The notes under the pieces: model-generated | Seen by the model: only the letters and a program-made list of their open reading frames with translations | Told to the model about the DNA's origin: nothing | Database searches by the model: none | Translations under genes and position numbers: made by a program | In this document: in pieces, positions 29,769 to 38,277 of the stretch | Layout of the letters: each line of letters starts with the position of its first letter | Numbering within the stretch: position 1 is the stretch's first letter | Source: Patescibacteria group bacterium | GTDB taxonomy: Bacteria; Patescibacteriota; Microgenomatia; UBA12405 | Direction of reading: 5' to 3' | DNA length: 64,000 nucleotides | NCBI GenBank assembly: GCA_018902845.1 | Contig: JAHIPV010000007.1 | Coordinates: forward strand, 6,989-70,988

Positions 29769-30604
29769 TGTGTTTGGTAGAATTTTGTAATAATTGATTT
29801 TAGATTACTGAATATTTCCAAGGAATATTGGTTTGTTTTGCTTAGTTCTTTTTTGGATTGTGGATAAAAGTTATTAAATTTATTACCATATTGTTTTTGT
29901 TCGGTTTTTTTTAAAGCTGTGTTGAGATTGTCACGGGCTATGTCCATTTTAATAAAAACATCTGATGTCCAATTCTGTCCTTCTGTTTCAATTTGATCTG
30001 AGTTTTGTATTTTTGTGGCAAGATTTTTTAGTTCGTTTAAAATTTGTTCGTAGTTGTTGCATTGATTTTGGACAATTGATGTATAAATTTCTTTTTGAAT
30101 GCTATTGTATTTGGATTGAAAATTTTGGCCATTTTGAGAAAGGTCATCCAAATTACTTAATGAGTCAACAATAATGTTTTGTTCTTTTAACCACGAAATC
30201 CATTTTTCTAATTCAATTTGATTTTTTTTGGTATTTGTAGGATTGTTGTCAGAATATTCTGATAATTTGGTTTTTAGGGCGAGAATATATTTTTGTAATA
30301 ATGTGTTTCTGGAGATGATGGCTTTTTTGGTCCACTCCATTTTTTCCTTTTCGGTGGTAATTGTCCCGTATTTAGTGTGAGTTTCTTTTTTTTCAGTGTA
30401 TTTTAAATAGGCTTGGCTGTATTCTTGTTGTTGGTTTAAATAATCTTTTTTGGCTTGTTGGTAAGGTGAAAGGGTGGGTGCGGGAGTTGGCGGTATCTCA
30501 GTTGGGGTTGGCAGGGAAATTGTGGCGGATTCGGTTGTTGGCGGGATAGCTAGAATGGGTTTTGAAATTAGAAGTAAGAAGCTTAGAAGAATAAGAGTAA
30601 GCAT
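29765..30604 (-). CDS. hypothetical secreted protein
   Basis: Signal-peptide-like N-terminus; 4-nt overlap with downstream ORF. Confidence 0.35.
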   Translation of the reverse strand: MLTLILLSFLLLISKPILAIPPTTESATISLPTPTEIPPTPAPTLSPYQQAKKDYLNQQQEYSQAYLKYTEKKETHTKYGTITTEKEKMEWTKKAIISRNTLLQKYILALKTKLSEYSDNNPTNTKKNQIELEKWISWLKEQNIIVDSLSNLDDLSQNGQNFQSKYNSIQKEIYTSIVQNQCNNYEQILNELKNLATKIQNSDQIETEGQNWTSDVFIKMDIARDNLNTALKKTEQKQYGNKFNNFYPQSKKELSKTNQYSLEIFSNLKSIITKFYQTQ

Positions 30605-30624
30605 AGTTTAGTGTAGCAGAAAAG

Positions 30625-30706
30625 TGCCGCAGAGAGGAGTCGAACCTCCACGCCCAAGGACACACGGTTCTAAGCCGTGCCTGTCTACCAATTCCAGCAC
30701 TGCGGC
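30625..30706 (-). tRNA. tRNA-Leu (anticodon TAG), long variable arm
   Basis: Reverse complement gccgcagtgctggaattggtagacaggcacggctTAGaaccgtgtgtccttgggcgtggaggttcgactcctctctgcggca. Confidence 0.75.
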
Positions 30707-30772
30707 GGATTAGCATATTTTAACCTTTTTTGATTAAAATTGGTAAAATATCGCATTGGTGATGATATTTTT

Positions 30773-30846
30773 GTCCTCATAGCTCAGTCGGATAGAGCGC
30801 TTGCCTTCTAAGCAAGAGGTCGGAGGTTCGAATCCTCCTGGGGATA
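30773..30846 (+). tRNA. tRNA-Arg (anticodon TCT)
   Basis: gtcctcatagctcagtcggatagagcgcttgcctTCTaagcaagaggtcggaggttcgaatcctcctggggata; acceptor stem with two G-U pairs. Confidence 0.7.
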
Positions 30847-30855
30847 CTTATTCAT

Positions 30856-30927
30856 GCGCCCATAGCTCAATGGATAGAGCATTGGTCTTCGGAACCAAGG
30901 ATGAAGGTTCAACTCCTTCTGGGCGTA
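30856..30927 (+). tRNA. tRNA-Arg (anticodon TCG)
   Basis: gcgcccatagctcaatggatagagcattggtctTCGgaaccaaggatgaaggttcaactccttctgggcgta. Confidence 0.75.
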
Positions 30928-30930
30928 CAA

Positions 30931-30992
30931 AAAGGTTCGCCAACTGGCGAATCAGTTGGTAGATCCGCCAGTTGGCGGACTCTTAAGCGATT
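30931..30992 (+). repeat. pseudo-tRNA-Lys 5' fragment (D-arm-like + hairpin + anticodon loop), broken off exactly at the GIY-YIG start codon
   Basis: ttcgccaactggcgaatcagttggtagatccgccagttggcggactcttaagcgat has the same unit as the two copies at 31401-31505. Confidence 0.7.
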
Positions 30993-31250
30993 ATGTATGT
31001 ATATGTAATAAAAAACAAAAAAACAGATAAAATATATATTGGCCAAACAAACAATTTAAAAAATAGACTTAAAAGACACAACGGGCATTTAAAAAACAAA
31101 GTAACAAGCTATACTTCGAAAAATAAAGGAGAATGGCAATTAGTATACAAAGAAGAATATGATACTAGAAAAAAAGCTATAAAAAGTGAGAAACAATTAA
31201 AATCTTACCAAGGCAGACAATATATAAAAAGAACAATCATGGGCCGTTAG
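30993..31250 (+). CDS. small GIY-YIG nuclease-domain protein (COG2827-like)
   Basis: YVYVIKNKKTDKIYIGQTNNLKNRLKRHN is a canonical GIY-X10-YIG...R..H motif; 85 aa; stop codon overlaps 5' end of tRNA-Lys. Confidence 0.7.
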   Translation: MYVYVIKNKKTDKIYIGQTNNLKNRLKRHNGHLKNKVTSYTSKNKGEWQLVYKEEYDTRKKAIKSEKQLKSYQGRQYIKRTIMGR

Positions 31251-31316
31251 CTCAGCTGGTAGAGCAATCGCCTCTTAAGCGATCGGTCAGAGGTTCGAAT
31301 CCTCTACGGCCCACCA
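31241..31316 (+). tRNA. tRNA-Lys (anticodon CTT), CCA encoded
   Basis: gggccgttagctcagctggtagagcaatcgcctCTTaagcgatcggtcagaggttcgaatcctctacggcccacca. Confidence 0.85.
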
Positions 31317-31505
31317 CTCAGTTGGTAGATCCGCCAGCTGGCGGACTCTTAAGCGATCGGTCAGAGGTTTCCGCCGGTAGGCGGACAGGCTACCTCTACG
31401 TTCGCCAACTGGCGAATCAGTTGGTAGATCCGCCAGCTGGCGGACTCTTAAGCGATCGGTCAGAGGTTTCCGCCGGTAGGCGGACAGGCTACCTCTACGG
31501 TCCAC
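31317..31505 (+). repeat. two tandem pseudo-tRNA-Lys units in which anticodon-stem 5' side and T-loop are replaced by TCCGCC-N4-GGCGGA hairpins
   Basis: Unit (ttcgccaactggcgaat)cagttggtagatccgccagctggcggactcttaagcgatcggtcagaggtttccgccggtaggcggacaggctacctctacg x2; compare the tRNA-Lys sequence. Confidence 0.75.
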
Positions 31506-31542
31506 TTAAAAAAAATTGTTTCACAAATTTTAAAATCTTAAA

Positions 31543-33048
31543 TCACAAATTCAAGTTTCTGAGTTTTTTTAAGAAGTTTAGGATTTTTTGTTTTATATTG
31601 GTTTTGGGGCGGAAGATAAGTGAGTTTTTTGTGATGGGAGTGAGTTGAATTGGATCAATGTTTTTCCAGCTGATGAAAGTGTTTGACTGAGGGATTTCTG
31701 ATGGAATTATTTGAAATGTAAATTTGAATTCGTGAGTTTGACCTGGTTCGATTATTTCATGGTTAGTACAAATAGGGCCCAATTCTACATTTGCTGTACT
31801 TTGAGGAGAAAGACAAAACGATGTTTCATTTTCTCCCCAAATTGATTGACCGGTATTTTTTAGTTTAATTTTTCCCTGGTATTTTTTTTGAGGAAAAATG
31901 ATAAAAGGTAGCTTTTTTTTAACCAATTCAGATTCAGTGATTTGTTGTGGGTTGTTTTGTTGTTTTGGTATATCTATTATTTTTTGGTATTGAGGATACA
32001 GGTTTTCTTGTTTGTCTACCCAAGAAAAATGGTCGAAAGGCGAATAGGGATAATTAAATATAAATGGAGTGACTGCTTGGATGCGGATATCCTGTTGCCA
32101 GAGTAGTATGGCGGATTTTAAAAAATCTGTGGCTGTGTTTAGGGTATAAAATTGATTGTTGTTTGATTCCCCTTCTCTGTGTGGCCAACCCGTTTCGGTG
32201 ATAAAGATTGGAAAGTTTTTATTAATTCCGAGAGATTTTAAGAAGTCTAATTCCCATTGATAGCCGAGAATACTAAATTTACCAATATCGGTTGGTTTGC
32301 CGATAAAACCTGGATTAGGGTATGAGTGAGAGGAAATAGCATCAATGTTATTGAAATAATCAGATTTATATTCAATTATTTGACGATAAAATGTGTCTGC
32401 AGACATAAACTGTGGGTTTTTATCAGGGGCAGCTAGGTCTAGTCCCGCACTTAAGATGTAAAAATTTGGATTAAGTTTTTTGAGTTTTTGGGAGGCATAA
32501 ACAGCGATATCGGTGTAGTGTCTTGGGTTGATTTTTCCACCCCATTCTTTTGATTGATTTGGCTCATTAAAAAGGATAATGTGTTGAGTTTTGGTGGGCC
32601 AGTTAAGCGAATTGAGAAAGTTGGCTAGTTTGTCTATATCTTGATAAACGGGGCTTTGCCAAATAGCATTTTGTTGGGTAGTTGCCAGTCTAATAATTGG
32701 AATAATATGATACTTTCGGCAATTATTAAAGAAATTTTGCCAAGCATTGTGATTGAGATTGTTAAGAGGAATTACAATAGTGGTCCAACCCCAGTCTGCG
32801 TTTGATGAATTTATAATATCTTTGGTTTTATGGATATCTGAGTCTTGTGTTAAATGAAGACCGAAAATGTTTCTCTCTTGGGAAAAAACAGGTTGGTTGT
32901 TTAATAACAAATAAATGATACTAAATAATAATAAAAGGAAGATTTTTGGCTTTTTCACTAGTAAAATATAACAGATGAAAAAAGAAGAAATTATAAAAAT
33001 GCGGATAAAGCGAGTTGAAAAGGAAATTCGTGACACACCATACGACAA
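31543..33048 (-). CDS. secreted glycoside hydrolase, clan GH-A (GH5-like)
   Basis: Signal peptide; IILFNEPN (acid/base NEP motif) and FITETGW (nucleophile) spaced as in GH5-type TIM-barrel hydrolases. Confidence 0.5.
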   Translation of the reverse strand: MSYGVSRISFSTRFIRIFIISSFFICYILLVKKPKIFLLLLFSIIYLLLNNQPVFSQERNIFGLHLTQDSDIHKTKDIINSSNADWGWTTIVIPLNNLNHNAWQNFFNNCRKYHIIPIIRLATTQQNAIWQSPVYQDIDKLANFLNSLNWPTKTQHIILFNEPNQSKEWGGKINPRHYTDIAVYASQKLKKLNPNFYILSAGLDLAAPDKNPQFMSADTFYRQIIEYKSDYFNNIDAISSHSYPNPGFIGKPTDIGKFSILGYQWELDFLKSLGINKNFPIFITETGWPHREGESNNNQFYTLNTATDFLKSAILLWQQDIRIQAVTPFIFNYPYSPFDHFSWVDKQENLYPQYQKIIDIPKQQNNPQQITESELVKKKLPFIIFPQKKYQGKIKLKNTGQSIWGENETSFCLSPQSTANVELGPICTNHEIIEPGQTHEFKFTFQIIPSEIPQSNTFISWKNIDPIQLTPITKNSLIFRPKTNIKQKILNFLKKLRNLNL

Positions 33049-36643: not shown

Positions 36644-36727
36644 GCCGGGGTGGCGGAATTGGTATACGCGCAAGACTTAAAATCTTGTGTCCCTTGGGAC
36701 GTGTGGGTTCGACTCCCACCTTCGGCA
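36644..36727 (+). tRNA. tRNA-Leu (anticodon TAA), long variable arm
   Basis: gccggggtggcggaattggtatacgcgcaagactTAAaatcttgtgtcccttgggacgtgtgggttcgactcccaccttcggca. Confidence 0.75.
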
Positions 36728-36730
36728 CAT

Positions 36731-36804
36731 CGGGGATTGGCGCAATTGGCTAGCGCGCACGGTTTGGGACCGTGAGGCTGCAGGTTCGAATCCTGTATCC
36801 CCGA
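36731..36804 (+). tRNA. tRNA-Pro (anticodon TGG)
   Basis: cggggattggcgcaattggctagcgcgcacggttTGGgaccgtgaggctgcaggttcgaatcctgtatccccga. Confidence 0.7.
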
Positions 36805-36805
36805 C

Positions 36806-36960
36806 TGATCCGCTGAAGGCGGAAAATCATAAATCTAAATTTTCAAATCCTAAATTCTAATATCTAAATTCTAAATAAATTCAAATATCTAAATTCAAAA
36901 TTCAAAATAAGTCCAAACATTAAAATTGAAACTTAGGATAAATTAGAAATTATAAAAATT
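36806..36960. repeat. AT-rich low-complexity spacer with degenerate tctaaatt / ttcaaaat repeats
   Basis: Direct reading between tRNA-Pro and tRNA-Gly. Confidence 0.6.
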
Positions 36961-36979
36961 TAGTTAAGAATTGTTTTAA

Positions 36980-37050
36980 GCGGGATTAGTTGAGCGGTTC
37001 AACATCACCCTTCCAAGGTGAAAAGATGGGTTCGACTCCCATATCCCGCT
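36980..37050 (+). tRNA. tRNA-Gly (anticodon TCC)
   Basis: gcgggattagttgagcggttcaacatcacccttTCCaaggtgaaaagatgggttcgactcccatatcccgct. Confidence 0.7.
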
Positions 37051-37061
37051 CTGATTTTTGA

Positions 37062-37144
37062 GCCAGGGTGCTGGAATTGGTAGACAGGCGTCGCTCAGAA
37101 CGGCGTGTCCTTTGGGCGTGTGGGTTCGACTCCCACCCTTGGCA
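37062..37144 (+). tRNA. tRNA-Leu (anticodon CAG), long variable arm
   Basis: gccagggtgctggaattggtagacaggcgtcgctCAGaacggcgtgtcctttgggcgtgtgggttcgactcccacccttggca. Confidence 0.7.
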
Positions 37145-37146
37145 CA

Positions 37147-37195
37147 GTGAAAAATTTTTCCGCCAGAGGCGGACTAAAGAATTTTTAATTTGTAC
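37147..37195 (+). repeat. ~48-bp post-tRNA repeat containing hairpin tccgccagaggcgga (copy 1)
   Basis: gtgaaaaatttttccgccagaggcggactaaagaatttttaatttgt is nearly identical to 37599-37648. Confidence 0.7.
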
Positions 37196-37228
37196 TTTTG
37201 TTTTTAAACATTGTATAATTAGGATTAA

Positions 37229-37471
37229 ATGATAGTTTCAGTTCAAGAATTGACTGTAGGTCCAAATTCATTAACACGGGAAGGCTTGGAAAGAAAGATT
37301 CAATGGGTAGTGGAAGCAAGAAAAGTTGGTGTAGATGTTGTATTGCCTTCGATTAAGGATATGCCCATTGAAGCCTTGGTGCTTGCAGAAAGAGCGGGGG
37401 TTTATGGACCAGGCCAAAGAATGGTAGCTTTGAGGAGGTTGGTAAATGATGAGGATGCGATGGAAAAATAG
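37229..37471 (+). CDS. hypothetical small protein (higher-GC, inside tRNA cluster)
   Basis: ORF only. Confidence 0.25.
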   Translation: MIVSVQELTVGPNSLTREGLERKIQWVVEARKVGVDVVLPSIKDMPIEALVLAERAGVYGPGQRMVALRRLVNDEDAMEK

Positions 37472-37524
37472 TAAAATAATTTTAGAGAGAATTTTTTGTG
37501 TGGATTTTGTATAATATATGTTAA

Positions 37525-37598
37525 GCCGAAGTAGCCAAGATGGTCACGGCACTGGTCTGAAAAACCTGGGATGTTGGTTCGAGTCCAACCTTCGGCAC
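37525..37598 (+). tRNA. tRNA, probably Phe (anticodon GAA) with one U-U mismatch in anticodon stem
   Basis: gccgaagtagccaagatggtcacggcactggtctGAAaaacctgggatgttggttcgagtccaaccttcggca; good acceptor and T-arms, imperfect anticodon stem. Confidence 0.45.
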
Positions 37599-37648
37599 GC
37601 TGAAAATTTTTTCCGTCAAAGGCGGACTAAAGAATTTTTAATTTGTGT
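37599..37648 (+). repeat. ~48-bp post-tRNA repeat containing hairpin tccgtcaaaggcgga (copy 2)
   Basis: ctgaaaattttttccgtcaaaggcggactaaagaatttttaatttgt. Confidence 0.7.
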
Positions 37649-37679
37649 GGAGTAAAGAGAAGGATTTTAGATTAAATAT

Positions 37680-37752
<73 letters not shown>

Positions 37753-37823
37753 CAGATTTCCCGTGATTTATATCGAGGAATGTTTATTTATGTATGTTTT
37801 TGGGTTAAAATAGATTAGTTTTT

Positions 37824-37900
37824 TGGGTCTGTGGCTCAGTTGGTAGAGCGCTCGGTTTACATCCGAAAGGTCGCAGGTTCGAGTCCTGCCAGACCCACCA
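37824..37900 (+). tRNA. tRNA-Val (anticodon TAC), CCA encoded
   Basis: gggtctgtggctcagttggtagagcgctcggttTACatccgaaaggtcgcaggttcgagtcctgccagacccacca. Confidence 0.8.
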
Positions 37901-37901
37901 A

Positions 37902-37983
37902 GCCGAGGTGGCGGAATTGGTAGACGCGCACGCTTGAGGGGCGTGTATTGAAAGATGTGCAGGTTCAACTCCTGTCCTCGGCA
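37902..37983 (+). tRNA. tRNA-Leu (anticodon GAG), long variable arm
   Basis: gccgaggtggcggaattggtagacgcgcacgcttGAGgggcgtgtattgaaagatgtgcaggttcaactcctgtcctcggca. Confidence 0.7.
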
Positions 37984-37987
37984 CTTT

Positions 37988-38058
37988 TGTCCGGTCGTCT
38001 AATGGTAGGACACTAGCCTTTGAAGCTGGTTATCGTGGTTCGAATCCATGCCGGACAA
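37988..38058 (+). tRNA. tRNA-Gln (anticodon TTG)
   Basis: tgtccggtcgtctaatggtaggacactagcctTTGaagctggttatcgtggttcgaatccatgccggacaa. Confidence 0.7.
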
Positions 38059-38277
38059 CAGAATTTGAAGTGTATTTTTTTCGGGTGTTATGGTGTTTGG
38101 GAAGGCGGTTGGGAAGGTTTGGGGGGCAGACTTATGGGTTGGGCTTCGAGTTTTCTTAAGATATCAAAATCAATGCTTTTGTAAGAGATAATTCCGGCGA
38201 TTGTAAGAAGAATAAATAATAAAGAGATGAGAATGGTGCTGATTGTGTTTGGTTTGTTTTGAGTCATAGATTGCTAA

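What the first reader, a model, noticed from the sequence alone, without database searches (positions are those of the whole stretch)
30931..31505. GIY-YIG mini-gene inserted at the anticodon-stem/variable-loop junction of a tRNA-Lys repeat array
Upstream of the GIY-YIG ORF is a pseudo-tRNA fragment ending exactly at ...ctcttaagcgat. The ORF then starts 1 nt later and its stop overlaps the first nucleotides of an intact tRNA-Lys. Two more pseudo-tRNA-Lys units follow in tandem. The intact tRNA-Lys and the pseudo units share ctcttaagcgat|cggtcagaggtt, so the GIY-YIG gene plus tRNA 5' half appears to have been inserted at gcgat|cggtc within a repeat unit. This looks like a homing-endonuclease-type or tRNA-targeting mini-element.
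Basis: seen in the sequence. Interest (0 to 1): 0.6.

Follow-up and report, generated by a model that had tools for sequence, protein, structure and literature searches.

The report
Nuclease-and-hairpin cassette inside tRNA-Lys gene
A tiny nuclease gene has settled inside a lysine-tRNA gene of an ultra-small (Patescibacteria) bacterium, leaving one working tRNA copy and several dead copies, each plugged by a GC-rich hairpin; that hairpin co-evolves with one residue of the nuclease, and the same apparently undescribed cassette occurs in hundreds of related species.

Summary
It is one instance of a widespread module.

**Spread.** At least 510 species-representative genomes, apparently all Patescibacteria, encode a relative of this 85-aa stand-alone GIY-YIG nuclease. 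In 67 of the 80 loci read, the gene abuts a tRNA-Lys gene. Often the tRNA's own U8-A9-G10 serves as the stop codon. Partial copies of the local tRNA lie beside it.

**The hairpin (P).** In those partial copies, nt ~24-31 are replaced by a conserved 16-nt GC hairpin, TCCGCCAGCTGGCGGA.

**Evidence for insertion.** A close relative (L187) has identical synteny, a plain tRNA-Lys, no ORF and no hairpin. ORF-less remnants, tandem ORFs and population-level array variants also exist.

**Evidence for function.** The ORF is under purifying selection (dN/dS about 0.1).

**Key new result.** Protein residue 72 co-varies with base pair 5 of the hairpin stem:
- Y/F/A/C with C·G
- S with T·A, 7 of 7 loci, including 3 of 3 blind predictions
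- H with G·C, 5 of 5 loci

P is therefore the nuclease's cognate site.

**Best reading.** This is a selfish, homing-type nuclease-plus-site cassette living in tRNA genes. The drive mechanism is inferred, not shown. I found no description of this system in the searchable literature.

The parts
30720..30749 (+). Sigma-70-like promoter match upstream of the tRNA-Arg/Arg/cassette/tRNA-Lys run; the likely operon promoter (consensus match only).
   Evidence: TTAACC-18-TAAAAT, 9 of 12 matches, with TG before the -10 hexamer.
30935..30991 (+). Left pseudo-tRNA-Lys fragment (tRNA*). It sits where the 5' end of the resident tRNA-Lys lies in the empty allele. It contains hairpin 0, a D-loop remnant, hairpin P and the anticodon loop plus 3' anticodon stem.
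   Evidence: family D1. Alignment A3 with the empty allele L187. Same structure in L177.
30936..30951 (+). Hairpin 0, TTCGCCAACTGGCGAA. It replaces the acceptor 5' strand and the D-stem 5' strand.
   Evidence: Homologous hairpins occupy the same position in L177, L039 and L195.
30964..30979 (+). Hairpin P, TCCGCCAGTTGGCGGA. It replaces tRNA nt ~24-31 (D-stem 3' end, nt 26 and the anticodon-stem 5' strand). It is the cognate site of the GIY-YIG protein.
   Evidence: Conserved upstream of the ORF in 68 of 80 species loci. Stem covariation. Co-variation with protein residue 72.
30993..31250 (+). Stand-alone GIY-YIG nuclease gene, 85 aa (UPF0213 / Slx1-like catalytic domain only). The stop codon TAG is U8-A9-G10 of the tRNA-Lys.
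   Evidence: dN/dS 0.06-0.13 in most close pairs.
31241..31316 (+). Intact tRNA-Lys(CTT) with encoded CCA; the only functional-looking copy in the locus.
31317..31400 (+). Pseudo unit B. Order: D-loop remnant, hairpin P (31330-31345), tRNA nt 32-~55 (31346-31369), T-loop hairpin P2 (31370-31385) followed by CAGGCTA, then T-stem 3' and acceptor 3' remnant.
   Evidence: The same P2 insertion occurs in L016 and L179-L184.
31401..31505 (+). Pseudo unit C. Order: hairpin 0 (31401-31416), D-loop remnant, hairpin P (31429-31444), tRNA nt 32-~55 (31445-31468), hairpin P2 (31469-31484), then the 3' end CCTCTACGGTCCAC. That 3' end is colinear with the 3' end and downstream flank of the resident tRNA-Lys in the empty allele.
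   Evidence: Alignment A3.

Best explanation
The locus is a selfish, homing-type cassette that lives inside tRNA genes of Patescibacteria. It has three parts:
1. a stand-alone, Slx1-like GIY-YIG nuclease gene with no extra DNA-binding domain;
2. a GC-rich 16-nt hairpin or palindrome (P) that is the nuclease's cognate site, embedded in disabled copies of the host tRNA;
3. one intact copy of the tRNA, which keeps the host viable.

**Shown**
- The cassette is an insertion relative to an empty allele.
- It is patchily present among close relatives and decays to ORF-less remnants.
- The ORF and P are both under purifying selection.
- P and protein residue 72 co-evolve base-specifically.
- The arrays recombine within populations.
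- The cassette occurs at Lys(CTT), Lys(TTT), Asn, His, Val, Cys and Phe tRNA genes.

**Inferred**
- The nuclease binds P in its catalytic cleft and nicks or cuts at or near it, as a duplex palindrome or as an extruded stem-loop.
- Breaks at P-bearing, ORF-less tRNA copies are repaired from an ORF-bearing copy, using the flanking tRNA sequence as portable homology arms. This copies P, the ORF and a tRNA 5' part into the broken copy (homing), and also produces tandem units and unequal exchanges.
- The P just upstream of the ORF probably doubles as an operator that limits expression.
- Selection on the host keeps exactly one copy free of P.

In this window the resident tRNA-Lys has been expanded from 74 nt to about 575 nt. 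The order is: left fragment, ORF, intact tRNA, two dead units.
For: **tRNA linkage.** Of 80 species-representative loci, 58 have tRNA-Lys at -38..+160 nt after the ORF, and 26 of those use U8A9G10 as the stop. Nine have tRNA-Lys directly upstream instead. Five are at tRNA-Asn and one at tRNA-His.

**Hairpin P.** P lies within 130 nt upstream of the ORF in 68 of 80 loci, or just downstream in the reversed loci.

**Empty allele.** L187 has the same synteny with a plain tRNA-Lys. L188 and L190 are also empty, and L191 has a lone tRNA*.

**Decay and amplification.**
- 21 of 80 P-bearing metagenome loci lack the ORF.
- L092 keeps only the last 12 codons, KRLFIKNLIKDN.
- Frameshifted ORFs occur in L104, L119 and L148.
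- Tandem ORFs occur in L008, L064 and L112.
- Strains with an identical ORF differ in unit number and hairpin variants (L179-L184).

**Lateral movement.**
- The pseudo-copy acceptor strand differs from the local tRNA in L009, L010, L054 and L077.
- The L157 pseudo-copy is a chimera of local tRNA-Val and a His-like anticodon loop.
- CTT, TTT and Asn contexts are interleaved in the ORF tree.

**Selection.** dN/dS is 0.06-0.13 in most close pairs (range 0.06-0.39). Window versus L177 has dS 1.7, yet the architecture and P are retained.

**P stem.** All cells are paired, 3 of 6 pairs show double changes, and 0 of 500 shuffles reach this.

**Protein-site co-variation.**
- Residue 72 Y/F/A/C/G goes with CCGCC..GGCGG in 66 genome loci and 55 metagenome loci.
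- S goes with CCGTC..GACGG in 4 of 4 loci that are not each other's nearest relatives.
- H goes with CCGGC..GCCGG or CAGGC..GCCTG in 5 of 5 loci.
- Blind predictions held in 3 of 3 cases. A Q variant carries CCGTT..AACGG.
- Fisher p is about 3e-9 for S and 4e-8 for H.

**Structure.**
- The AF2 model has pLDDT 95. Its nearest structures are UPF0213 and Slx1.
- Residue 72 starts the helix that follows the helix carrying the invariant Glu.
- In Slx1, a DNA-binding patch (site II: H80, H84) forms part of the predicted catalytic DNA-binding interface (PMC6902002).
- That H80/H84 follow Slx1's catalytic Glu, and so correspond to residue 72 here, is from memory and was not checked.

**Autonomy.** No conserved partner gene was found.
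Against: - No cleavage or binding data exist. An 85-aa catalytic domain alone is unusually small for a site-specific enzyme.
- P stays intact next to the ORF, so the donor would itself be cleavable. Classical homing endonucleases avoid this.
- Naive, P-free tRNA-Lys alleles would not be recognised under this model. First entry into a genome therefore needs another route: plain recombination through tRNA homology.
- The ORF has persisted vertically for long periods in at least one lineage (window, L177, L010, L034, L036, L037 and L065 cluster in the tree). That equally fits a useful host function.
- Hairpin 0 and the T-loop hairpin P2 do not follow the residue-72 variant.
- No copies were found in phage records or viral contigs.
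- Co-variation shows recognition, not cutting.
- The NJ tree of 85-aa proteins is poorly resolved.
Confidence: 0.5

Rival explanations
1. Classical free-standing homing endonuclease. The nuclease cuts intact, cassette-free tRNA-Lys genes. The cassette is copied in by repair together with a replacement tRNA part. Hairpin P is only an operator for autorepression and/or a disruption that makes the leftover tRNA fragment uncleavable.
For: - Insertion polymorphism against an empty tRNA-Lys allele.
- Strict tRNA-Lys/Asn association.
- P usually lies 8-72 nt upstream of the ATG, which fits an operator. I-TevI is known to repress its own promoter through an operator resembling its homing site (my own knowledge).
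- Sequence and fold relatives include the I-TevI catalytic domain.
Against: - The intact tRNA next to the ORF has the same D/anticodon-stem sequence as the empty allele L187, so it would be cut as well.
- In 9 of 80 loci, P is downstream of the ORF and no P lies upstream.
- Extra P copies of the same variant type lie hundreds of nt away, inside T loops, inside another hairpin and inside a group I intron. An operator role does not need these.
- The only base-specific co-evolution detected is with P, not with tRNA sequence.
Confidence: 0.2
2. Domesticated or host-beneficial module. A structure-specific, Slx1-like nuclease is co-transcribed with tRNA-Lys and processes hairpin or cruciform structures at this repeat-prone, highly transcribed locus, or serves another repair role. 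On this view the pseudo-tRNAs and hairpins are passive debris it manages, and there is no drive.
For: - Strong purifying selection on the ORF.
- Long vertical persistence with the same junction in the window and L177 despite dS 1.7.
- Fold closest to Slx1, which maintains repeated DNA (plus my own knowledge of Slx1 and rDNA).
- No link to phages.
Against: - The module is absent from close relatives that have an otherwise identical locus (L187, L188, L190).
- ORF-less and frameshifted remnants are common.
- The cassette occurs at different tRNA genes, with chimeric pseudo-copies.
- The hairpins occur only where the ORF is or was, so the 'problem' it would solve travels with it.
Confidence: 0.15
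3. RNA-level system. P is an RNA hairpin in the tRNA-operon transcript, bound or cut by the protein. This could be translational autoregulation, or a type-III-toxin-antitoxin-like pair of a nuclease with repeated structured RNA units.
For: - P lies on the sense strand of the same transcription unit.
- Tandem structured units sit next to a nuclease gene in this window and in L028, L057 and L052.
- Loop length and sequence vary (3-4 nt) while the stem is conserved.
- One G·U-compatible stem exists (L048).
Against: - All characterised GIY-YIG enzymes act on DNA (my own knowledge).
- PADLOC shows only generic GIY-YIG similarity, and no toxin-antitoxin family matches.
- Most loci have a single P rather than an array.
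- No terminator separates the repeats from the ORF.
- P is a near-perfect palindrome, so strand specificity cannot be shown.
Confidence: 0.08

Closest known systems
Free-standing GIY-YIG homing endonucleases of T4-like phages, especially SegB in the T4 tRNA gene cluster (my own knowledge)
   Same: A GIY-YIG nuclease gene placed among tRNA genes with no intron. It shows presence/absence polymorphism and is presumed to spread by break-induced gene conversion using flanking homology.
   Different: - SegB is about 220 aa and has a DNA-binding domain; this protein is 85 aa, catalytic domain only.
- The setting is a cellular chromosome of Patescibacteria, not a phage.
- The ORF is wedged between an intact tRNA copy and hairpin-disabled copies of the same tRNA.
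- A conserved cognate hairpin accompanies the gene.
UPF0213 / YhbQ (COG2827) stand-alone GIY-YIG proteins and the Slx1 nuclease domain
   Same: - Best sequence and fold matches: 1ywl at E 2.6e-6 and 1zg2; Slx1 6seh/6sei at TMq 0.63 and rmsd ~2.9 A.
- Same size and single-domain build as UPF0213.
- Slx1 is structure-specific, acting on flaps, junctions and stem-loops.
   Different: - No tRNA linkage or cognate hairpin has been described for UPF0213 proteins (literature searches).
- Slx1 needs Slx4 and carries a RING domain.
- Here base-specific co-evolution with a defined site is seen.
I-TevI (group I intron GIY-YIG homing endonuclease)
   Same: The catalytic domain is homologous (1mk0 at E 1.9e-5). 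The possible dual use of a recognition site as an operator near its own gene would mirror I-TevI autorepression (my own knowledge).
   Different: There is no intron in the window (Rfam), no linker or DNA-binding domain, and the recognised site is retained intact beside the gene.
REP elements and their RAYT nucleases; IS200/IS605 ends
   Same: A nuclease gene is flanked by short GC-rich hairpins that are its cognate sites. The hairpins outnumber the gene and persist without it.
   Different: - RAYT and TnpA are HUH/Y1 enzymes, not GIY-YIG.
- REPs are spread genome-wide. Here the hairpins are confined to the tRNA locus: 7 of 7 in this 64-kb window.
GC-rich palindromes flanking tRNA genes in Neurospora mitochondria, and mobile GC clusters of yeast mitochondria (my own knowledge)
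   Same: An AT-rich genome carries conserved GC-rich palindromic insertions associated with tRNA genes, in genomes that also host GIY-YIG homing endonucleases.
   Different: The organellar palindromes lie between genes rather than replacing tRNA segments. No cognate protein is known for them, and the sequences are unrelated.
GIY-YIG ORFs in non-intron insertion sequences of CPR rRNA genes (PMC11270868)
   Same: Same bacterial radiation. GIY-YIG genes are inserted in structural RNA genes without a recognisable intron.
   Different: [quoted passage not shown] That paper does not mention tRNA, target duplication or hairpins.
Integrase-driven islands at tRNA genes
   Same: Insertion in a tRNA gene, with a partial tRNA duplication that keeps one copy intact.
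   Different: - No integrase or any other conserved neighbour gene is present.
- The duplicated part is usually the 5' part, whereas islands duplicate the 3' part.
- The unit is under 600 nt.

Membership tests
GIY-YIG nuclease superfamily | Match to the GIY-YIG catalytic domain profile above the curated threshold. | tested here: met
   PF01541 at E 9.3e-17, 61.5 bits against a 22.6 cut-off, covering residues 1-73.
GIY-YIG nuclease superfamily | Conserved catalytic motif residues: the Tyr of 'GIY', the Tyr-x-Gly of 'YIG', Arg, His/Tyr and Glu. | tested here: met
   Y4, Y15, G17, R25, H29 and E66 are invariant in 41 homologues.
GIY-YIG nuclease superfamily | The characteristic alpha/beta fold. 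| tested here: met
   AF2 model at pLDDT 95.2 with order b-b-a-a-b-a-a. Foldseek top hits are UPF0213, Slx1, UvrC-N and I-TevI.
GIY-YIG nuclease superfamily | Metal-dependent DNA cleavage activity. | not testable with these tools
   Needs biochemistry.
UPF0213 / YhbQ-type stand-alone GIY-YIG proteins | A protein of about 80-110 aa made of the catalytic domain only, with sequence similarity to solved UPF0213 members. | tested here: met
   Profile versus PDB: 1ywl at E 2.6e-6 over residues 3-82; 1zg2 at E 3.7e-5. The protein is 85 aa with no additional domain.
Homing endonuclease gene (free-standing) | Presence/absence polymorphism at a fixed site among close relatives, with otherwise colinear flanks. 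| tested here: met
   Window and L177 are filled; L187 is empty with the same flanking genes and tRNAs.
Homing endonuclease gene (free-standing) | A cycle of invasion, degeneration and loss, leaving ORF-less or frameshifted remnants. | tested here: met
   21 ORF-less P-bearing loci; the L092 remnant of 12 codons; split ORFs in L104, L119 and L148.
Homing endonuclease gene (free-standing) | The enzyme makes a site-specific break in the allele that lacks the gene, while the gene-bearing allele is immune. | not testable with these tools
   No cleavage data. The indirect evidence is mixed. The protein co-evolves with hairpin P, but P is also present in gene-bearing alleles. The intact tRNA beside the ORF equals the empty allele over the D/anticodon stem region.
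Homing endonuclease gene (free-standing) | Horizontal spread between lineages or sites. | tested here: inconclusive
   - Lys(CTT), Lys(TTT), Asn, His, Val and Phe contexts occur, with chimeric pseudo-copies.
- The ORF tree is weakly resolved, and one lineage looks vertical.
- No host species tree was available.
Group I intron-encoded endonuclease | The ORF lies inside a group I intron that interrupts the RNA gene. | tested here: not met
   Rfam at E up to 10 finds only tRNAs at 30400-31800. The intact tRNA is contiguous. Group I introns do occur next to the ORF in L075 and L076, but the ORF lies outside them.
REP/RAYT-like nuclease-hairpin pair | A nuclease gene flanked by its cognate hairpins, with protein and hairpin co-evolving. 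| tested here: met
   P is present on both sides of the ORF in 19 of 80 loci. Residue 72 co-varies with stem base pair 5.
REP/RAYT-like nuclease-hairpin pair | An HUH/Y1 transposase-type enzyme and genome-wide dispersal of the hairpins. | tested here: not met
   The enzyme is GIY-YIG. The hairpins occur only at this locus in the 64-kb window.
Type III toxin-antitoxin | A tandem array of antitoxin RNA repeats, then a terminator, then an endoribonuclease toxin of a known family (ToxN, AbiEii and others). | tested here: not met
   - PADLOC shows only generic GIY-YIG or homing-endonuclease similarity.
- No terminator lies between the repeats and the ORF.
- Most loci have one hairpin, and it may lie on either side of the ORF.
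Integrase-mediated tRNA-gene island | A tyrosine or serine recombinase gene, plus direct repeats of the tRNA 3' part at the island ends. | tested here: not met
   No conserved neighbouring gene family: the best is shared by 9 of 80 loci. The duplicated segment upstream of the ORF is the tRNA 5' part.

The most novel reading that the evidence does not exclude
The GIY-YIG protein and hairpin P form a two-component mobile system of a kind not yet described: a GIY-YIG counterpart of REP/RAYT.

On this reading, the nuclease recognises its own 16-nt GC hairpin and promotes the hairpin's insertion or biased conversion into loops and stem junctions of nearby structured-RNA gene copies. Positions seen so far:
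- the D loop
- the D/anticodon junction
- the anticodon loop
- the T loop
- the loop of another hairpin
- a group I intron

This progressively kills every spare tRNA copy while hitch-hiking on the one copy the cell must keep. Specificity would be re-programmable by a single residue: Y/F for C·G, S for T·A, H for G·C.
Probability: 0.3. Interest if true: 0.85.

Novelty: new variant of a known kind. Interest (0 to 1): 0.72.

Why it matters
1. It points to a very common genome feature of the Candidate Phyla Radiation that appears undescribed. At least 510 species-representative genomes encode a relative, and the 80 read carry the cassette. It also explains many broken contigs and odd 'pseudo-tRNA' stretches at tRNA-Lys loci.

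2. It shows a third way for a selfish nuclease gene to sit inside an essential RNA gene without an intron or intein. The target is duplicated, one copy is kept intact, and the others are plugged with the enzyme's own site.

3. The one-residue/one-base-pair co-variation gives a directly testable recognition code for the smallest kind of GIY-YIG nuclease (85 aa). That bears on how minimal nucleases gain specificity, and on enzyme engineering.

4. It gives a concrete handle on intragenomic conflict and recombination dynamics in uncultivated, naturally competent ultra-small bacteria.

Tried and rejected
- **Known RNA family:** Rfam at E up to 10 over 30400-31800 found only the four tRNAs and chance-level hits.
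- **Genome-wide repeat:** the hairpin occurs only at this locus in the window.
- **Phage or plasmid-borne element:**
  - tblastn against 50,697 phage records found nothing.
  - A viral-contig scan with the hairpin 19-mer hit only GC-rich coding sequence encoding IRQLAD.
- **Defence or toxin-antitoxin system:** PADLOC, NCBIfam and PHROGs give only generic GIY-YIG or homing-endonuclease similarity.
- **Partner gene:** all-against-all clustering of flanking ORFs in 80 loci found no conserved neighbour.
- **Hairpin as the ORF promoter:** -10-like boxes often precede the ATG, but P does not align with a -35 position, and in the reversed loci it lies downstream of the ORF (by eye; for the window).
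- **Hairpin loop copied from the local tRNA nt 26-29:** inspected and found inconsistent.
- **Identifying the donor of the L157 chimera from ORF similarity:** inconclusive.
- **Other protein columns co-varying with the hairpin:** only positions 72, 76 and 78 stood out, and only 72 held for both variant groups.
- **Whole-region RNA fold:** stable, but dominated by the hairpins and not informative about function.
- **Literature:** seven full-text searches found no description of a tRNA-Lys/GIY-YIG/hairpin module.
Full report
**1. Checking the observation**

- tRNA-Arg(TCG) ends at 30928.
- A 57-nt fragment follows at 30935-30991. It is made of four pieces:
  - a GC hairpin, TTCGCCAACTGGCGAA (30936-30951);
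  - a D-loop remnant, TCAGTTGGTAGA;
  - a second GC hairpin, TCCGCCAGTTGGCGGA (30964-30979);
  - CTCTTAAGCGAT (30980-30991), which is the anticodon loop plus the 3' anticodon stem of tRNA-Lys(CTT).
- One base later the ATG of an 85-aa ORF starts (30993-31250). This ORF is a GIY-YIG domain: PF01541 at E 9e-17.
- Its TAG stop (31248-31250) is U8-A9-G10 of an intact tRNA-Lys(CTT) at 31241-31316.
- Two pseudo units follow, 31317-31400 and 31401-31505. TRF gives period 99 and 100% identity.
- The 24-mer CTCTTAAGCGATCGGTCAGAGGTT is shared exactly by the tRNA and both units; 0 are expected by chance.
- Seven related 16-nt GC palindromes occur here and nowhere else in the window; 0.03 are expected.

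Independent assemblies of the same organism show the same locus, with one or two downstream units, and several contigs break inside the array. The organism is a Patescibacteria MAG, represented by GCA_018896095.1 and GCA_018895885.1.

**2. What the pseudo units are**

Each unit is a tRNA-Lys copy in which defined segments are replaced by GC-rich hairpins.
- **Hairpin 0** replaces the acceptor 5' strand and the D-stem 5' strand.
- **Hairpin P** replaces nt ~24-31: the end of the D stem, nt 26 and the 5' strand of the anticodon stem.
- **Hairpin P2**, followed by CAGGCTA, replaces the middle of the T loop.

The D loop, nt 32-55, the T-stem 3' strand and the acceptor 3' strand remain tRNA-like. 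Rfam recognises nothing here except the true tRNAs.

**3. The module is general**

The protein has hundreds of homologues, and those that carry a source name are labelled Patescibacteria. Many of their C-termini read ...GPVAQR...SRVAQR or ...MGR. These are translations of a tRNA 5' end.

A scan of one genome per species found 510 relatives, and I read the best 80 loci. Their tRNA context:

| Context of the ORF | Loci (of 80) |
|---|---|
| tRNA-Lys (CTT or TTT) at -38 to +160 nt after the ORF, same strand | 58 |
| ...of which the ORF stops on the tRNA's U8A9G10 | 26 |
| Intact tRNA-Lys 3-46 nt upstream instead | 9 |
| tRNA-Asn follows | 5 |
| tRNA-His follows | 1 |

Further findings from these loci:
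- Nearly every locus has, upstream of the ATG, the 5' part of the local tRNA, then hairpin P, then the anticodon loop and a variable stretch of the tRNA 3' part.
- P (consensus TCCGCCAGCTGGCGGA) lies within 130 nt upstream in 68 of 80 loci. In the 'reversed' loci it lies just after the stop codon, inside a pseudo-copy that keeps a full 3' half.
- A clade associated with tRNA-Asn carries P in the D loop instead: GCTC[P]GGTAGAGC.
- No other protein-coding gene is conserved next to the ORF.

The general picture is therefore a nuclease gene sitting between copies of one tRNA gene. Exactly one copy is intact, and the others carry P.

**4. It is an insertion, and it comes and goes**

I searched with the neighbouring EF-P gene and found L187 (EF-P 86% identical). 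L187 has the same 279-aa gene, tRNA-Leu(-), tRNA-Arg(TCT), tRNA-Arg(TCG) and downstream 470-aa gene. It has a single plain tRNA-Lys(CTT), no ORF and no hairpin.

Alignment A3 shows two colinearities:
- The window's left fragment is colinear with the 5' side of that tRNA.
- The 3' end of the last pseudo unit, plus the flank TTAAAAAAAATTGTTTCACAAATTTTAAAATCTTAAA, is colinear with its 3' side.

So the resident tRNA has been expanded from 74 nt to about 575 nt.

Other states found among relatives and in populations:
- More distant relatives L188 and L190 are also empty. L191 has a lone hairpin-bearing pseudo-copy.
- L177, whose ORF is 82% identical, has the window's architecture and the same GCGAT|ATG junction.
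- A metagenome scan with GGTAGA+P+CT returned 87 stretches, of which 80 were read. Of these, 58 have the ORF and 21 have a pseudo-copy plus an intact tRNA-Lys but no ORF.
- One of the ORF-less loci, L092, still keeps the last 12 codons, KRLFIKNLIKDN.
- Split ORFs occur in L104, L119 and L148. Tandem ORFs occur in L008, L064 and L112.
- Strains with a 100% identical ORF (P0004) differ in the number and make-up of the downstream units (L179-L184).

Signs of movement between sites:
- The pseudo-copy's acceptor strand differs at 2-4 positions from the adjacent intact tRNA in L009, L010, L054 and L077.
- The L157 pseudo-copy joins a local tRNA-Val 5' part to a His-type anticodon loop.
- Lys(CTT), Lys(TTT) and Asn contexts are interleaved in the ORF tree, although that tree is weakly resolved.

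**5. Both the gene and the hairpin are functional**

Close ORF pairs give dN/dS of 0.06-0.13, with two higher values of 0.20 and 0.39. Between the window and L177, synonymous sites are saturated (dS 1.7). Even so, the hairpins and the junction are kept.

Across species, the six base pairs of the P stem are paired in 100% of cells. Three pairs show changes on both sides, and 0 of 500 shuffles reach this. Loops vary in sequence and in length (3-4 nt).

**6. The hairpin is the protein's cognate site**

I scanned the protein alignment for columns that follow the hairpin variants. One position stood out: residue 72 of the window protein, in the motif LKS-Y-QGR.

| Residue 72 | P stem | Loci |
|---|---|---|
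| Y, F, A or C | CCGCC..GGCGG | 66 |
| S | CCGTC..GACGG | 4 of 4 (L039, L050, L074, L086) |
| H | CCGGC..GCCGG or CAGGC..GCCTG | 5 of 5 |

The four S loci are 50-57% identical to each other but 61-66% identical to Y/F members, so they represent independent changes.

**Control.** All 55 ORFs recovered through a canonical P have Y, F, A, C or G at this position.

**Blind test.** I picked four further homologues by residue alone and then fetched their DNA:
- All three S proteins have T·A at stem pair 5: TCTGTC..GACTGA, TCCGTC..GACGGA and TCCGTC..GACGGA.
- A Q protein has a new variant, TCCGTT..AACGGA, next to a tRNA-His-like gene.

Fisher tests, excluding the P-selected loci, give p of about 3e-9 for S and 4e-8 for H. 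Additional P copies at the same locus share the variant type (L039, L195, L026, L076). Hairpin 0 and P2 do not.

**Structural context.**
- The AF2 model (pLDDT 95) is a bare GIY-YIG fold.
- Its nearest solved structures are UPF0213 proteins and the Slx1 nuclease domain.
- Residue 72 is the first residue of the last helix. That helix immediately follows the one carrying the invariant Glu66.
- In Slx1, site II (H80, H84) is a DNA-binding patch. It forms part of the interface predicted for catalytic DNA binding (PMC6902002).
- My placement of the Slx1 catalytic Glu at 79, just before H80/H84, is from memory.

This makes it likely, though not shown, that P is bound in the catalytic cleft.

**7. 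How it most likely works**

*Shown:* an insertion-type cassette with gain/loss polymorphism; purifying selection on the ORF and on P; base-specific co-evolution between protein and P; ongoing recombination among the tRNA-like units.

*Inferred:* I propose the following sequence.
1. The nuclease cuts or nicks at P, either as a duplex palindrome bound by a dimer or as an extruded stem-loop, in the manner of Slx1.
2. A break in a P-bearing unit that lacks the ORF exposes tRNA sequence on both sides.
3. Repair from an ORF-bearing unit copies P, the ORF and the next tRNA 5' part. The D arm on the left and the tRNA 3' half on the right serve as homology.

This would explain several features:
- the tandem tRNA*-ORF repeats seen in L112;
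- ORF 3'-end remnants upstream of pseudo-copies (L019, L056);
- flips of which copy is intact;
- copy-number variation.

Because tRNA arms are conserved, the same homology lets the cassette move between species and between tRNA genes. The P next to the ATG probably also limits expression. The host tolerates the cassette because one copy stays free of P.

Weak points of this model:
- The donor keeps a cleavable site.
- Naive P-free alleles such as L187 would not be recognised.
- There is no biochemistry.

That model struggles with three facts:
- The intact tRNA beside the ORF equals the empty allele over the relevant region.
- P is scattered in T loops, nested inside another hairpin (L095) and inside a group I intron (L076).
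- P lies downstream of the ORF in the reversed loci.

**8. Comparison with what is known**

- *By descent,* the protein is a UPF0213/Slx1-type GIY-YIG domain.
- *By behaviour,* the cassette is closest to free-standing homing endonuclease genes. T4 SegB even sits among tRNA genes.
- *By organisation,* with a nuclease beside its cognate hairpins, it resembles REP/RAYT pairs.

It differs from all of these in four ways: the 85-aa enzyme, the target-duplication solution, hairpins that replace tRNA segments, and confinement to one locus.

GIY-YIG ORFs in non-intron insertions of CPR rRNA genes have been reported (PMC11270868). That paper does not treat tRNA genes or hairpins. Seven full-text searches found no description of this module. 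The library lacks most subscription journals, so absence there is not proof of novelty.

**9. Verdict**

- I classify the feature as a new variant of a known kind: a homing-type selfish nuclease.
- It is widespread in Patescibacteria, and it comes with an unusually clean, testable recognition code of one residue to one base pair.

Confidence by claim:

| Claim | Confidence |
|---|---|
| The locus is a selfish or mobile insertion cassette | about 0.8 |
| P is the protein's cognate site | about 0.85 |
| The specific cut-at-P homing mechanism | about 0.35-0.4 |

Noticed in passing
window 1-64000: Nearly every 2-kb bin has strongly positive GC skew on the + strand (0.1-0.4). This is an unusually large strand asymmetry. 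A paper title on a complete Microgenomates genome mentions a similar disparity (PMC7143001, listed).
   Followed up: no
L076 2266-2524; L075 2635-2879: Group I introns (Rfam RF00028, 67.5 and 59.8 bits) interrupt the tRNA-Asn-like gene directly downstream of the GIY-YIG ORF. The L076 intron carries two TCCGGC.AGTC.GCCGGA hairpins of the same variant type as the P hairpin upstream of that ORF.
   Followed up: partly
L095 1469-1512: A P-type hairpin sits inside the loop of another: GATCCGTC[TCCGCCAGCCGGCGGA]TGGCGGACT. This suggests repeated insertion of the hairpin into hairpin loops.
   Followed up: partly
L039, L193, L195 (and window 30936-30951, 31370-31385): The acceptor-side hairpin 0 and the T-loop hairpin P2 keep the CGCC-type stem even where the main hairpin P and residue 72 have switched to the S / T·A type. 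They may be older relics, or they may be read differently.
   Followed up: partly
L033 1917-1973, L015 1922-1988, L038 257-344: Other, unrelated GC-rich hairpins (for example CCTGCC...GGCAGG) are inserted in the anticodon loop, after nt 9, or in the D loop of pseudo-tRNA copies. Dead tRNA copies seem to accumulate GC hairpins of several kinds.
   Followed up: no
L005, L006, L177, L192, L194; L001/L004 versus window: Contigs from several assemblies end inside the array. Some assemblies show one downstream unit where the window shows two. This is either real copy-number polymorphism or repeat collapse.
   Followed up: partly
L177 3001-3318: The gene caller extended the ORF upstream through the hairpins to give 105 aa (MVRRLANQLVDPPAGGLLSD...). 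Several database 'proteins' of this family therefore carry translated pseudo-tRNA or hairpin sequence at their ends, for example the P0038 C-terminus SVGSPPAGGL.
   Followed up: yes
window 36644-38059: A second cluster of nine tRNA genes lies here with no GIY-YIG gene or GC hairpins. Four of the window's 15 tRNAs, including the tRNA-Lys, encode their CCA end.
   Followed up: no
window 31543-33048 (-): A 501-aa ORF of unknown function directly downstream of the array is conserved in the same position in relatives with and without the cassette (470-aa gene in L187, 460-466 aa in L188-L191). No Pfam hit is on record for it.
   Followed up: no
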